Assembly (NCBI GenBank): GCA_002308495.1
Contig: DBVW01000021.1
Coordinates: 11,338-75,337 of the forward strand
Source: Alphaproteobacteria bacterium UBA1254
GTDB taxonomy: Bacteria; Pseudomonadota; Alphaproteobacteria; RF32; CAG-239
Length of the DNA: 64,000 nucleotides
Reading direction: 5' to 3'
In this document: piece by piece, positions 6,001 through 9,000 of the stretch
Numbering within the stretch: the first letter of the stretch is position 1
Layout of the letters: each line of letters starts with the position of its first letter
Program-made: the position numbers

Positions 6001-9000
6001 ACCTGCCACAAGCCACGGCTCAATTCATTGACCGTCATCACTCTGACAACCCTGACCAAGCCTTTTGTTCTAATAATCTCAAGAGCACGCTTTGCTGTCT
6101 TATCAATAAACGATTGATAAACTGCCGGCGACGACATTTCCTGAAGCATACTGCCCGGCATCCATCGCGCCTCCATTTCTCTGGCATCATTCACAAACGC
6201 GCTTCTAAGAAGCACATATTCGCGAACAAAAACTTCCGTAACCGTTTTTTGATCAACCATATTACCGAGCGGCATAATATCATAAACCTGCTCTTCTTTA
6301 TTTTCAAAAGTAAGCAGAAACGGTTCAATGCGATAAAGCGGCACAAGTTGCGCAATAGCCAAAACCAAAACCAAATTACAGCAAATACTGATTGCTACAA
6401 TTACGGCAAAAGCGCGTGCCGTCCATAAATAACGTTTTTCCGAAGCATTAACGACAACAACCTCTTCACCGGAAGCCGAGCGGTTCGGCCGGCGTTGAGG
6501 TGCACTCGGCCGTTTGCCGATGAGCTTCTGCTGAACATTATTAACGCCTAACTTATCTGCCATTTAATTTTCCTTATATTGATGCCACAAACCAATCCGG
6601 CAGAGTTTTATCAAGCTCTACCTGAATACAAGCACAAGGCGAAAGCTTTAGTTCGTTAACATCTTTACCAACGCCGACCGGTTCCGGTTCATAATATGAC
6701 CCGCAAGCCGAAACGAGCAAAACAGCAAAAAGCAAAATTATTTTCTTACACATTGCAATGTCCTTCTTCATATCAAGACCTATTCATGTTATACTCATTA
6801 TTTTAAAAAGTCTAACATGAACACACTCAAATCCCCAACTTATCAAAAAATTGGAAACCCGTTATAGTCTAACATAATCTTAAAATATTAACATATATTA
6901 AATAAAACAAAAAAGAACACAAATTAGAAAATGAATTTTGTTTATTGGTCGTTCCTGTTCCGAACAGCCCGCCACATAAGCTAAAAAAATGCGGAGAACA
7001 GTGCAGATAGAGTGAAAATAAAGGCGGAAGTACCGGAGCGTACAAAAACATACGTGAGGACACTTCCGACCTGCTATTTTTGCTCTAGATACGCTGTTAT
7101 ACGCATTTTTACAGGATTTCAACTTCGGTTTGCGAATACCTTGTTACAGTAAATCCGAGCGGATTCATTAAACGCCTTCCCATAAAGAGACGTTCGGGCA
7201 CAAAAAAGGCGGTAACGGAAGCTGTCCAATAACGTGTTTTCAAAACCCAGCGTCCGTTTTCCTGCATTGAACCGCGCGACAAATCGTATGTTCTGAAATC
7301 GACTTTCCAAACGGGGCTTTTCTCGCCGCCGACTTTACCGATTGAAATAATTTCCGTATCGCGAACAAGACCGTCCCGAAGAAAATCGTTCAAATGGTCC
7401 ACCGTTTCTTTTTTAAATTTGATAAAAACATTCGGAGCAGACATATAGTTCACAATACCGCCTGCAAACCAGCGTGTCTGCATTTCCTGCTCATCATTTA
7501 AAATCGTATTGCGCATCATCACATATTGTCTGACAAACGTTTCCATCATCTGTTTTGACGAAGCCATATCCGGCGCAATAACCTCATAGCGAACCATTGA
7601 TTCCGAATTATCTTGTTTAATAATCAAAAAAGGCTCAACCGTAACCTGCGGCGCCATCCGAAAAAGAACAAGACTGGCAGAGGCAAAAAACAAAAGCGAA
7701 ATCATACAAAAGAGCATAATAAGTCTTGAAACCCATTGATAATAGGCTTCCTTCAAGCTCTTTAAGCCGATTTCTTCATCTGTGAGATATCTCTGACCTT
7801 CTTTCAAAGGCTTCGCTATCGCAAGTTTTTTCTGCCCGTTTCCTAAAACATCTGCCATCTGTCTTGTTTCCAAACCTTAAAAATATTTTGCACGATAAGG
7901 AACTGCCATCTTCTTTTTATTGTTCTCAAATTCTTTTTGAGCCTCAGCTTCATATTTAGCGACAACATCCTTATCTGCTTTTTTCGTTTTTATTTTGTCT
8001 TCAACTTCCTGTTTTGTTAAATTATCCGAAATCAAAACAAGCTCATCAAAATCTGTCTGCAAAATATCCAGCAAATTCTCAATCTTTTTCTTTCTGTTGA
8101 TTAAGTTTGTATATTCCGGAGCTTCTTCAACAGGTTTGAATTCCGGAAGCTGTTTCAGCAAATTCTGAGCTTCAGATAAAAACATATTCTTTCCGTCATC
8201 CAAACATTTTGCAATAGACTCAAACGTTTCCTTGTCAGCAATATATTCTGCCGAAACAATCTTTGTTTTTGCTTCTCCATACGTGATATATCCTGTTTCT
8301 TTCGGCTTATACGAACAGTCTATCTTGGCTAAAACGTCTTCTATTGACCGACGCCCTTCGTCAACCTTAACTTTAAGCTTAGCCATTGAAAGCTGATACG
8401 TCCGCTCTTGGTCCACAAACTGCAGATAATCGCCGATTTGGTCGCGTCCGAGCATCTTCAGTTCGTTTTCTTTATATTCATCTTCTTTAATCTTTTTCTT
8501 TGATGCTTCATCTTCAGCCGCATGGAAATAACAAATCAATTCGAAAAGCGGATTTGTAAACGTCAAGCCCCCTTCATATTTTAAGAAAACAGACATCTCA
8601 CTGACATAACTGGCAAGCCCGCCGCCTTCACCTTTATCTTCTAAAAAGACTCGGCTCGCATCATCAACATTATTCTGGTTCAAAATATCAACAATATCAA
8701 CATCTCTGTCAATGAACCCGTCCGGTTTCAAAATCGTCTCCCAAATTGCCGGCATATCTTGCCCCGTCTCTAAAAATTCATGACGGGTTGTTTTTGCAAG
8801 GCTCTTAACTTTTCCTTTTTTAGAACACTTACCACCTGTTGTCAAAAGGTTGCCGTAATCGCCATAATCAAAGTGGAAAACCTCTCTGAGCGGCGCAGTT
8901 CTTTTCGGTGTAATCATTTTCGGAACGGTAAAGTCGCGAGCCCGACCTTTAAGGCTGACAAAATAATCTTTATCTTCCTGTTTACATATAGCCCCCTCGC

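What the first reader, a model, noticed from the sequence alone, without database searches (positions are those of the whole stretch)
6851..7105. Family of short palindromic intergenic repeat elements (RPE/MITE-like) with recurring CCGTTATAC ends
A ~110-bp core is found almost identically at 6990-7105 and 47095-47205. There is a 3' fragment at 45186-45240. A truncated copy lies at 47880-47960 (AAAAATGCGGAGAA flanked by two CCGTTATACG). The 9-mer CCGTTATA(C/G) also occurs at 6851 and 31899 next to gene ends. The core has internal inverted repeats (ggaagt...acttcc, gtac...gtac), so it can fold. One copy splits the two VirB8 paralogs of the T4SS operon, so it is co-transcribed with them. The six-frame track even produces matching spurious peptides from the two copies. 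Such elements are characteristic of Rickettsiales-type genomes and can act as transcriptional punctuation or recombination sites.
Basis: seen in the sequence. Interest (0 to 1): 0.6.

Follow-up and report, generated by a model that had tools for sequence, protein, structure and literature searches.

The report
Hairpin repeats docked at stop codons
The two look-alike 129-base stretches belong to a large, previously undescribed family of long-hairpin repeats in uncultured gut Alphaproteobacteria that sit, in one fixed orientation, directly against the stop codon of ordinary genes, most likely as end-of-transcript hairpins that get copied around the genome.

Summary
Copies A (6984-7112) and B (47077-47205) are about 90% identical. 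The window also holds decayed relatives at 45185-45225, 47882-47955 and 31885-31922.

It is not a two-locus duplication. One pattern scan found the element in about 20 species-level MAGs of uncultured gut and rumen Alphaproteobacteria. A covariance model then found about 60 copies in 244 kb, many in tandem arrays of up to five.

The whole unit is one rod-like hairpin. 32 of 40 pairs show compensatory changes and 96% of cells are paired. Rfam, plasmid and phage searches found no match.

New findings:
- The "CCGTTATACG" end abuts the TAA or TAG stop codon of a gene on the opposite strand in 31 of 46 non-redundant cases. The other end does so in 0 of 44.
- The position after ftsK and after the virB8 paralog is kept across species, while the inner stems are genome-specific.
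- The strand complementary to the mRNA folds best: 181 G·U against 22 A·C, and 27 of 27 copies.

It is not an RPE, and Rickettsiales origin is not shown. No target-site duplication could be demonstrated.

Most likely it is a REP/ERIC/SPRITE-like repeat acting as a 3'-end hairpin. How it spreads is unknown.

The parts
6984..7112 (+). Full copy A. The + strand is the better-folding strand. It lies directly after the virB8-paralog stop codon, on the opposite strand to that gene.
   Evidence: CM 128 bits. 88-93% identical to B. Fold energies. The same position is occupied in L072, L073 and L074.
7109..7111 (-). TAA stop codon of the virB8 paralog (7109-7858). It lies inside the last bases of the element's outer stem.
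47077..47205 (+). Full copy B. It has the same inner stems as A and a compensated outer stem (CTCG/CGAG against TGCG/CGCA). It lies between divergent genes, with only a TAA-ended 17-codon open stretch at its right end.
   Evidence: CM 129 bits.. Absent at the syntenic locus in L041 and L042.
47904..47955 (+). Internally deleted copy D. It keeps both outer-stem halves, the GGAGAAT box and the CCGTTATACG box. It abuts the ftsK stop codon (47951-47953).
   Evidence: CM 24.9 bits with a 94-position model gap.. A full copy sits at the same place in L041, and a tandem doublet in L024.
47882..47904 (+). Solo right end D' (CCCCCGTTATACGTATTAAAAAT). It is the remnant of a second tandem unit after ftsK.
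45185..45225 (+). Right-end fragment C. It lies between the atpF stop (45189-45191, + strand) and the stop of ORF 45225-45638 (- strand).
   Evidence: 88% over 41 nt to B, E 2e-6.. A full-length copy lies after the orthologous ORF in L041, at 16330-16455.
31885..31922 (+). Mini remnant made of an outer stem plus CCGTTATAC. On the sense strand it forms the terminator-like hairpin after thioredoxin (31920-32231, - strand).
   Evidence: This is my reading of the sequence; it was not detected by the CM.

Best explanation
This is a new family of non-coding repeats, about 129 nt long, each forming a single rod-like hairpin. In general kind it resembles REP, REPIN, ERIC and SPRITE elements. It is carried by a clade of uncultured gut and rumen Alphaproteobacteria.

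Shown:
- Each unit has conserved boxes: GGAGAAYRGTnCAGATAGAGTRA on the left, AG-YGTAC-loop-GTACRTGA in the centre, and TTGCTCTAGATGnGCYGTTATACG on the right.
- The boxes are separated by stems whose sequence differs between genomes but stays complementary.
- A 9-10 bp outer stem closes the unit.
- Units occur singly or in head-to-tail arrays.
- One specific end lies within a few bases of the TAA or TAG stop codon of an upstream gene. The element is therefore the first thing in that gene's 3' untranslated region.
- Copies decay by internal deletion to minis and solo ends.
- Copies within one genome are homogenised.

Inferred mechanism:
- The unit is transcribed with the upstream gene. On the mRNA it forms a very stable 3' hairpin.
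- In the A/T-ended subtype, to which all window copies belong, the hairpin is flanked by an A run and a U run. It would then work as a strong, probably bidirectional, intrinsic terminator and a block to 3' exonucleases.
- Copy A would thus end the virB2...virB8-paralog unit, ahead of a separately promoted virB7-virB8-virB9 unit.
- In the GC-ended subtype there is no U run, and in two of the three loci I scanned a separate terminator-like hairpin follows in the sense direction. There the unit would act only as a 3'-UTR hairpin for stability or protein binding.
- New copies arise by an unidentified trans-acting activity or by recombination and gene conversion between copies. The form that is recognised is probably the strand complementary to the mRNA, which folds best.
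For: Family and structure:
- 35 loci in about 20 MAG species from a single pattern scan, and 26 more loci from an independent pattern.
- About 60 copies in 244 kb, with arrays of up to five.
- 96.1% of cells are paired, 32 of 40 pairs changed on both sides, and 0 of 500 shuffles reach this. Slid controls give 33-48%. RNAalifold finds 23 of 40 compensatory pairs.

Docking at stop codons:
- 31 of 46 right ends lie within -20..+10 nt of the stop codon of an ORF of at least 100 codons on the opposite strand. None of 44 left ends does.
- The stop codons are 24 TAA, 7 TAG and 0 TGA, against 17% TGA in the background.
- The FtsK C-terminus ...GRREV(L/I/V)* is the same with and without the element.

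Positional conservation:
- After ftsK the element is found in the window, L041, L042 and L024, where FtsK is 89%, 84% and 56% identical to the window's.
- After the virB8 paralog it is found in L072, L073 (two units) and L074.

Concerted evolution:
- Inner stems are shared by A and B, and by the L041 ftsK and plsY copies, but differ between orthologous copies.

Terminator-like features:
- The sense-strand hairpin reaches -51.6 kcal/mol and is followed by UUUUUUU in copy A.
- The outer stems resemble the window's simple terminator at 52884-52914.
- Downstream genes start 33-950 nt after the element.
- The region upstream of virB7 is conserved across species.
- GC-type units are followed by separate terminators.
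Against: - The mRNA-sense strand is the worse-folding one. 86.2% of cells are paired against 96.1% on the complementary strand. G·U outnumbers A·C 181 to 22. Tandem G·A and G·A/A-U/G·A loops exist only on the complementary strand. A purely mRNA-level function does not predict this.
- A terminator or stabiliser need not touch the stop codon, and ordinary terminators in the window sit 17-35 nt downstream.
- GC-type units have no U tract.
- Tandem arrays of five units are excessive for termination.
- Copy B and the L041 and L042 plsY copies do not follow a gene end.
- No transcript data exist.
- No mobilising protein, target-site duplication or base-resolved empty site was found.
Confidence: 0.5

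Rival explanations
1. It is a single-stranded DNA recombination or transposition site. The strand complementary to the mRNA (the bottom strand) folds into the rod. An unidentified tyrosine recombinase or HUH/Y1 enzyme, comparable to IntI on attC or RAYT on REP/REPIN, recognises it by shape and inserts or copies it 3' of TAA/TAG in a fixed orientation. The RNA hairpin would then be a by-product.
For: - The strand asymmetry is the kind used for strand choice at attC (PMC2727003). G·U outnumbers A·C 181 to 22, and all conserved mismatches are purine-purine on one strand.
- The ssDNA fold is -32 kcal/mol on the + strand against -23 on the - strand.
- Structure, not sequence, is kept in the stems.
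- The orientation is fixed relative to the ORF, and the stop codon lies in or next to the first stem, as in integron cassettes.
- TGA is absent among the adjacent stops.
- No target-site duplication was found.
- Each genome has its own master sequence, as in REPIN populations (PMC3116915).
- The same gene ends are occupied in distant genomes by each genome's own type.
Against: - No integrase or RAYT was seen next to any copy in about 570 kb of loci. The only tyrosine recombinase seen is a Xer-like gene next to dciA.
- The arms are equal in length, so there are no extrahelical bases.
- The distal box is GTTCTCC, not GTTRRRY.
- An extra outer stem lies beyond the boxes.
- In the window the well-folding strand is on the C-rich + strand (GC skew -0.2). 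I read that as the leading-strand template, where hairpins are least likely to extrude.
- The positional conservation can also be explained by old insertions plus gene conversion.
Confidence: 0.25
2. It is a classical MITE or RPE. In this view it is a cut-and-paste, TIR-bounded miniature transposon mobilised by a DDE transposase (for example IS630/mariner-type with a TA target), of the Rickettsia palindromic element kind.
For: - It is palindromic with inverted ends, multi-copy, and has deletion derivatives.
- TA flanks both ends in 9 of 13 A/T-type copies, and the adjacent stops are TAA or TAG only.
- One reading frame is open through the whole unit.
Against: - The TA flank is not significant against the A/T-rich context (about 43% expected).
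- The outermost 7-8 bp vary between copies while staying complementary. That does not fit a transposase that reads TIR sequence.
- The strict orientation and the asymmetry between ends (31 of 46 against 0 of 44) are not expected for a palindromic TA target.
- No copy is in-frame inside a gene.
- No parent IS was seen.
- The hosts are not Rickettsia.
Confidence: 0.1
3. It is an independent structured RNA gene on the strand opposite to the neighbouring gene. The + strand would be transcribed into a rod-like RNA of about 130 nt, sometimes as tandem precursors, with G·A and G·U motifs for protein binding. Its 3' end would be antisense to the stop-codon region of the neighbouring mRNA.
For: - The + strand fold is better in 27 of 27 copies (-63.6 against -45.4 kcal/mol).
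- Conserved G·U pairs and tandem G·A pairs are typical of functional RNAs.
- GC-type copies carry a conserved left extension that reads as TTGCAC-N17-GAGAAT, which is promoter-like (my reading).
- In roughly a third of assessable cases (15 of 44) a convergent gene would transcribe this strand anyway.
Against: - A/T-type copies, including all window copies, have no conserved promoter.
- The putative promoter would start transcription inside the left arm and so destroy the rod.
- There is no Rfam relative.
- Nothing explains why an RNA gene should touch a stop codon.
Confidence: 0.1

Closest known systems
REP/REPIN elements with RAYT (TnpA-REP) transposases (PMC3116915, PMC8266576)
   Same: - Extragenic hairpin-forming repeats of about 100 nt.
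- Many copies per genome, sometimes in clusters.
- The hairpin is kept by compensatory change.
- Each genome has its own master sequence, and copies persist over long periods.
- No target-site duplication.
   Different: - There is no pair of short REP palindromes with a GTAG-type head.
- No RAYT gene was found. I could not search whole genomes.
- Units lie head-to-tail rather than in alternating orientation.
- The strict docking to stop codons in one orientation is not, to my knowledge, a described REPIN property.
ERIC / RU-1 127-bp imperfect palindromes of enterobacteria (PMC2759123, PMC10969869)
   Same: - Almost the same length.
- Imperfect palindromes in transcribed intergenic regions, often at gene 3' ends.
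- The RNA hairpin affects transcript fate depending on orientation.
   Different: - No sequence similarity and a different phylum-level host.
- By my recollection, ERICs occur in both orientations and at variable distance from genes. They also occur inside genes (PMC10969869).
- Here orientation and position are fixed, and the stems covary.
[quoted passage not shown]
   Same: Dispersed repeats that look like terminators or sit mainly in 3' UTRs.
   Different: - Unrelated sequence and host.
- The review I read (PMC10969869) does not mention stop-codon abutment, strand-asymmetric folding or deep positional conservation for them.
Integron attC sites, especially the 120-130-nt VCR type (PMC2727003, PMC5027507)
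   Same: - Imperfect palindromes of similar length placed right after an ORF in a fixed orientation.
- By my recollection, the stop codon of a cassette ORF often lies in or next to the first box.
- AAC...GTT pairing near the base, with GTATAAC here against the attC consensus RYYYAAC as I recall it.
- Conservation of shape rather than sequence.
- The strand opposite to the ORF has the distinctive fold.
- By my recollection, attC sites within one chromosomal integron are near-uniform.
   Different: - No extrahelical bases.
- The distal box is GTTCTCC.
- An additional 9-10 bp outer stem.
- Much more conserved sequence.
- Not in a cassette array and not next to an integrase.
- They follow housekeeping genes (ftsK, fabG, trxA, flagellin, virB8).
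Rickettsia palindromic elements (RPE) (PMC10969869, PMC1779305)
   Same: Alphaproteobacterial palindromic repeats of 100-150 bp.
   Different: - About half of the RPEs first described in R. conorii are inserted in-frame in protein-coding genes and encode a conserved peptide (PMC10969869).
- These elements never are, and their constraint is on base pairing.
- The hosts are gut MAGs, not Rickettsia.

Membership tests
Rickettsia palindromic elements (RPE) | Frequent in-frame insertion inside protein-coding genes, with a conserved encoded peptide. | tested here: not met
   In 51 non-redundant copies none interrupts an ORF; 31 of 46 start at a stop codon. Substitutions follow base pairing, not a reading frame.
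Rickettsia palindromic elements (RPE) | Host is Rickettsia, and the sequence resembles one of the RPE consensus families. | tested here: inconclusive
   All carrier records are uncultured gut or rumen Alphaproteobacteria MAGs.
Classical MITE (TIR plus TSD, transposase-derived) | Terminal inverted repeats conserved in sequence between copies. | tested here: not met
   The outermost 7-8 bp differ between copies and covary. Examples are TGCG/CGCA, CTCG/CGAG and GCGAGGGCG/CGCCCTCGC. The conserved boxes are subterminal.
Classical MITE (TIR plus TSD, transposase-derived) | Direct target-site duplication flanking each copy. | tested here: inconclusive
   No direct repeat longer than TA was found. TA flanks both ends in 9 of 13 A/T-type copies, which is not distinguishable from composition. 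No base-resolved empty site was obtained.
Classical MITE (TIR plus TSD, transposase-derived) | A parent IS with the same ends exists in the host. | not testable with these tools
   Only about 570 kb of loci were held, and no whole-genome access was possible. No candidate was seen.
REPIN / REP-RAYT | The unit is two inverted REP palindromes, each with a conserved tetranucleotide head. | tested here: not met
   The left and right boxes pair with each other across the unit. Neither box is a hairpin on its own. The GCTC...GAGC local pairing exists only when the variable base is A.
REPIN / REP-RAYT | A single-copy RAYT (Y1 transposase) gene flanked by the repeats. | not testable with these tools
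No inverted pair flanking an ORF was seen in the loci held.
REPIN / REP-RAYT | The hairpin is maintained by compensatory substitutions, with a genome-specific sequence population. | tested here: met
Integron attC site | R''/R' boxes RYYYAAC ... GTTRRRY at the very ends of the site. | tested here: not met
   The proximal box GTATAAC fits 6 of 7 positions. The distal box is GTTCTCC. A 9-10 bp stem lies outside both boxes.
Integron attC site | Two or three extrahelical bases on one arm, plus an unpaired central spacer (PMC2727003). | tested here: not met
   The arms are equal in length. The asymmetry comes from mismatches and G·U pairs only. A 3x3 loop (GAG/ATA) occupies the spacer position.
Integron attC site | Arrays of ORF-attC cassettes next to intI and attI. 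| tested here: not met
   Copies follow dispersed housekeeping genes, and the arrays contain no ORFs.
Intrinsic (Rho-independent) terminator | A stable hairpin immediately followed by a U tract on the transcribed strand. | tested here: inconclusive
   Met by the A/T-type copies, with 4-7 U on both strands; copy A has 7 U on the sense strand. Not met by the GC-type copies. Two of the three GC-type loci I scanned have a separate terminator-like hairpin beyond the element. There is no functional test.
Any Rfam 15 RNA family | A covariance-model match. | tested here: not met
   No match at gathering thresholds over the window, and none at E up to 10 over 6900-7200.

The most novel reading that the evidence does not exclude
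The element may be a strand-specific, shape-recognised mobile hairpin that homes to the 3' boundary of TAA/TAG stop codons in a fixed orientation, using its bottom-strand fold. That would be attC-like logic operating outside integrons, on ordinary chromosomal genes. If so, it would be a natural example of how a folded recombination site becomes attached to the 3' end of a gene. To my knowledge, that step is unexplained in the origin of integron cassettes. It would also be a new way for selfish DNA to find a harmless, transcribed niche.
Probability: 0.12. Interest if true: 0.85.

Novelty: new variant of a known kind. Interest (0 to 1): 0.6.

Why it matters
This family adds a well-defined repeat, with one of the clearest covariation signals one could ask for, to a barely studied clade of gut and rumen Alphaproteobacteria.

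Three of its properties are unusual for bacterial repeats:
- One end sits exactly against stop codons.
- The same gene ends are occupied across species, while sequences are homogenised within each genome.
- The strand opposite to the mRNA folds better.

The family also has practical value:
- It explains assembly breaks in these MAGs. Contigs end inside the unit.
- It gives a marker for the clade.
- It offers a tractable system to ask whether such repeats are kept because they serve as transcript ends or because they have found a safe, targeted landing site.
- It suggests that the T4SS gene cluster in the window is split into two transcription units.

Tried and rejected
- Rfam at gathering thresholds and at E up to 10 gave nothing.
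- blastn of copy A against plasmid and phage collections gave nothing.
- I searched the metagenome collection for an exact empty site of copy B, using flanks joined with a 0-30 nt gap. There was no match.
- I tried base-level comparison of empty and filled sites with the 84-89% FtsK relatives. At the copy B locus the intergenic DNA was too diverged. At the plsY locus the window looks like a deletion footprint (AAAAAAG|TTTTT) rather than a virgin target.
- I tested a TA target-site duplication. It is not significant.
- I considered that the outer stem might be a pre-existing terminator split by an insertion. I rejected this because the outer stems have uniform length, always end in CG, and are shared within genomes.
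- I considered that mutational bias might explain the strand asymmetry. I rejected this because the element's skew (+0.20) is opposite to the local skew. C-to-T change on the coding strand would also give the reverse pattern.
- I tested attC membership. It failed on extrahelical bases, on the R' box and on context.
- The simple promoter and terminator scans cannot see the long hairpin, so they were uninformative for copies A and B.
- A regular-expression census of solo left and right ends was unreliable.
- Literature searches found no report of this family or of stop-codon-docked repeats in these bacteria.
- The exact-protein look-up with the TTG-started virB8 ORF failed. It worked from the ATG start.
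Full report
**1. Observation**

The two long copies are real.
- 6985-7111 and 47078-47204 are 88% identical without gaps. They are 93% identical over the central 103 nt, E 1e-38.
- A right-end fragment lies at 45185-45225, E 2e-6 against copy B.
- At 47882-47955 there is a solo right end followed by a mini copy that keeps both ends but lacks the interior.
- CCGTTATA occurs 8 times, always on the + strand, against 1.1 expected.
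- The match at 31902 is a further mini remnant, 9 nt from the thioredoxin stop codon.
- The match at 6859 is not part of the family. It lies in a region upstream of virB7 that is conserved in two other species, where the motif itself is not kept.

**2. Anatomy**

The whole 129-nt unit is one imperfect hairpin, not a core with small inverted repeats.
- As RNA, the gene-sense strand folds at -51.6 and -48.3 kcal/mol, z -8.5 and -6.0.
- As DNA, the + strand folds at -32 kcal/mol and the - strand at -23.
- Copies A and B already differ by a compensated change in the terminal stem: AAAAATGCG/CGCATTTTT against AAAAACTCG/CGAGCTTTT.

**3. The family elsewhere**

A pattern that matches the right end of all three window copies was scanned over one genome per species. 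It gave 35 loci. 33 of them are in about 20 MAGs titled as uncultured Alphaproteobacteria (a few only as uncultured proteobacterium, one as Rhodospirillaceae), whose isolate names point to human gut (Hadza, Brazil), rumen, goat and reindeer samples. The other two are chance hits in an archaeal bin.

An alignment of 27 full copies (A1) shows three conserved boxes:
- Left: GGAGAAYRGTnCAGATAGAGTRA.
- Centre: AG-YGTAC-loop-GTACRTGA.
- Right: TTGCTCTAGATGnGCYGTTATACG.

Between them lie stems whose sequence changes between genomes while staying complementary. The outer stem comes in two types. One is A/T-ended, such as TAAAAAnnCG/CGnnTTTTTA. The other is GC-rich, such as AGCGAGGGCG/CGCCCTCGCY.

The covariation is strong.
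- RNAalifold finds 23 of 40 pairs with compensatory double changes.
- On 41 copies aligned by the covariance model, 96.1% of cells are standard pairs and 32 of 40 pairs changed on both sides. No shuffle of 500 reaches these values, and slid controls give 33-48%. That alignment is fitted to the model, so the numbers lean towards the structure.

The model found about 60 copies in the 244 kb of those loci.
- Many are head-to-tail arrays: five units in L023, four in L021, and doublets in eight other loci.
- More diverged variants change even the boxes in a compensated way, for example CAGATAGAG/CTCTAGATG to CAAATAAAG/CTTTAGTTG.
- A second scan, anchored on the inner boxes only, gave 26 metagenome loci. 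Most of the 21 in which the model finds the unit come from gut, rumen or faecal samples, judging by their record names.

There is no match in Rfam even at E up to 10, and none in plasmid or phage records.

**4. Docking at stop codons**

I oriented every copy like the window + strand and removed orthologous duplicates.
- 31 of 46 assessable right ends have an ORF of at least 100 codons on the opposite strand that ends within -20..+10 nt of the element. Most are at -6..+9.
- Three are at -16, where the TAA inside the GTATAAC box serves as the stop codon.
- None of 44 left ends has this. The nearest gene end on the left is 28 nt away (raw junctions).
- The adjacent stops are 24 TAA and 7 TAG, never TGA. 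TGA makes up 17% of stops in the same loci. That gives roughly p = 0.01, or less strong after allowing for related loci.

Read in gene direction, the layout is ORF, stop, outer stem of 7-9 nt, then CGTATAACRGCnCATCTAGAGC...

The genes involved are unrelated. They include:
- a virB8 paralog,
- ftsK,
- thioredoxin,
- fabG,
- three flagellin paralogs,

and others.

The element does not alter the protein. FtsK ends ...GRREV(L/I/V)* at the same codon in genomes with the element (window, L041, L042, L024) and without it (L043, L044).

**5. Evolutionary behaviour**

The position after ftsK is occupied as follows:
- The window has two decayed units.
- L041 (FtsK 89% identical) has one full unit.
- L042 (84%) has a degenerate unit.
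- L024 (56%) has two full units.
- L043 (73%) and L044 (69%) have none.

The position after the virB8 paralog is occupied in all three relatives with long enough contigs (71-76% identity). L073 has two units there.

Orthologous copies differ in their inner stems, while copies at different loci of one genome share them. Examples are A with B, and the L041 ftsK and plsY copies. So the copies of a genome evolve in concert. This happens either by gene conversion or by repeated re-seeding of the same sites.

Presence and absence also vary.
- Copy B is missing at the syntenic locus in L041 and L042.
- A copy between the phosphorylase gene and plsY is present in L041 and L042 and missing in the window. 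The window keeps only AAAAAAG|TTTTT there, which looks like a deletion footprint.

Decay is by internal deletion (D, and the trxA remnant) and by loss of everything but the gene-proximal end (C, D', L004).

Assemblies of short reads break inside the unit.

In sequence not selected for the element, namely the window and L041-L044, there is roughly one copy or remnant per 10-15 kb.

**6. Strand asymmetry**

The strand opposite to the neighbouring gene folds better.
- 27 of 27 copies fold better on that strand, with means of -63.6 against -45.4 kcal/mol.
- In a structure-free comparison of the two arms, mismatches are G·T 140 against A·C 51, and purine-purine 226 against pyrimidine-pyrimidine 43.
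- On the 41-copy alignment, G·U is 181 against A·C 22. That is 96.1% paired, against 86.2% for the same pairs read on the gene-sense strand.
- About three quarters of the G·U excess sits in five family-wide columns.
- The conserved internal loops are tandem G·A, G·A/A-U/G·A and GAG/UGA.

Ascertainment fixed the right arm in the first set, but the left arm was free.
- Where the fixed partner is G or T, a wobble partner occurs in about 40% of cells.
- Where it is C or A, an A·C partner occurs in about 1%.

The element's + strand has GC skew +0.20, inside a window whose + strand has skew -0.2. Local mutational bias therefore does not explain the asymmetry.

**7. What it most likely does**

Because the unit starts at the stop codon, it is transcribed with the upstream gene whenever that gene is expressed.

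In the A/T-ended subtype, which includes all window copies, the hairpin is flanked by an A run and a T run.
- Both strands therefore read as hairpin plus U tract. Copy A has seven U on the sense strand.
- The outer stem closely resembles an ordinary bidirectional terminator of the same genome at 52884-52914.
- Downstream genes begin 33-950 nt further on.
- In front of virB7 there is a region conserved across species.

I therefore read copy A as the end of the transcription unit that finishes with the virB8 paralog, not as a spacer inside one operon.

GC-ended units have no U tract. In two of the three loci I scanned, a separate terminator-like hairpin follows in the sense direction. There the unit can only be a 3'-UTR hairpin.

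This reading does not explain three things: the exact contact with the stop codon, the better fold of the opposite strand, and arrays of five units. Those features point to a strand-specific step in how copies are made or recognised, which is the second explanation in my ranking.

I could not find a protein partner, a target duplication or a clean empty site.

**8. Comparison with known families**

- In kind it is closest to REP/REPIN, ERIC and SPRITE. They share hairpin repeats at gene ends, compensatory change and genome-specific populations.
- In logic it is closest to attC sites. They share a site placed right after an ORF, a fixed orientation, conservation of shape over sequence, and a distinctive bottom strand.
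- It fails the defining tests of RPE, classical MITE, REPIN and attC that I could run. See the membership table.

I file it as a new variant of the palindromic intergenic repeat kind.

**9. Limits**

- There are no expression data.
- I had no whole genomes.
- The alignments for pair counts are model-fitted.
- Copies are phylogenetically related, so counts are not independent events.
- The taxonomic placement rests on record titles only.

Noticed in passing
window 1-4168 (- strand; runs off the window start): A very large gene lies directly after virB9, in the position where VirB10 would be expected. It has an N-terminal membrane segment followed by dozens of repeats of about 17 residues (D-x-x-G-N-V-I-G-x-V...), seen as a 51-nt periodicity. 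Its homologues in relatives are 1453-1599 aa with no Pfam hit.
   Followed up: partly
window 7877-11983 (-), 11986-15279 (-), 18090-20263 (-): The T4SS cluster has an unusual make-up. It holds a 1368-aa protein without any Pfam match between the virB4-side genes and the virB8 paralog. It also holds coiled-coil proteins, and three consecutive VirB2/TrbC pilin paralogs, one of them fused to a 436-aa protein.
   Followed up: partly
window 6574-6771 (-): A 65-aa ORF with a lipoprotein signal (LLVSAC) lies between the element and the second virB8. It is called as a 59-aa gene in four related contigs. It is probably a VirB7-like lipoprotein. It has no Pfam hit.
   Followed up: partly
window 6790-6880: The region upstream of the VirB7-like gene is conserved in L072 and L073. 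It carries a repeated TTAGACT motif and TATAAC-like hexamers, so it may be a promoter or operator.
   Followed up: partly
window 52884-52914: A simple perfect palindrome, AAAAAATTCGGAAATTTTTCCGAATTTTTTT, follows fabG and is kept in L042. It looks like the outer stem of the repeat without its interior and scores weakly with the model (16 bits). Either the repeats collapse into plain terminators or they grew out of them.
   Followed up: partly
window 59825-61229: Two convergent pilin-like genes (59953-60576 + and 60627-61229 -) share an 80-nt inverted repeat at 78% complementarity. The ortholog of the first is called Bundlin/PilS in L041. Inverted copies of a terminator-like palindrome at 59825-59867 and 60571-60613 bracket the first gene.
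   Followed up: no
L006, L015, L016 and other GC-type copies: 20-25 nt left of the unit: GC-type units carry a conserved extension (T)TGCACTATCTYCAGCG. It is an inverted partial copy of the left box, so an alternative pairing is possible. Together with GAGAAT in the box it also reads as TTGCAC-N17-GAGAAT, which is promoter-like on the strand opposite to the gene.
   Followed up: no
L017 241-275; L016, L010, L003 right flanks; L023 6666-7202: A variant right end, GCYGCTAGACG, replaces GCYGTTATACG in some units. In L023 the two unit types alternate along the five-unit array.
   Followed up: partly
L044 6978-7376; L041 4600-4760; window 47040-47076: A different short repeat occurs in these genomes. 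Units of the type GTCATTGCGAGG... / GTCATCCTCGGG...AAAAATAAAAAT recur several times downstream of fabG in L044. Similar pieces lie next to the plsY copy in L041 and next to copy B in the window.
   Followed up: partly
window, whole length: GC skew is negative along all 64 kb, ranging from about 0 to -0.34. It is more negative where genes are on the - strand. I read this as the + strand being the lagging strand throughout. All repeat copies in the window lie in one orientation.
   Followed up: partly
L013, L031: Two contigs of a Nitrososphaeria MAG match the search pattern but have no similarity outside it. They share their own repeat around the match. These are chance hits to the 23-nt pattern.
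   Followed up: yes
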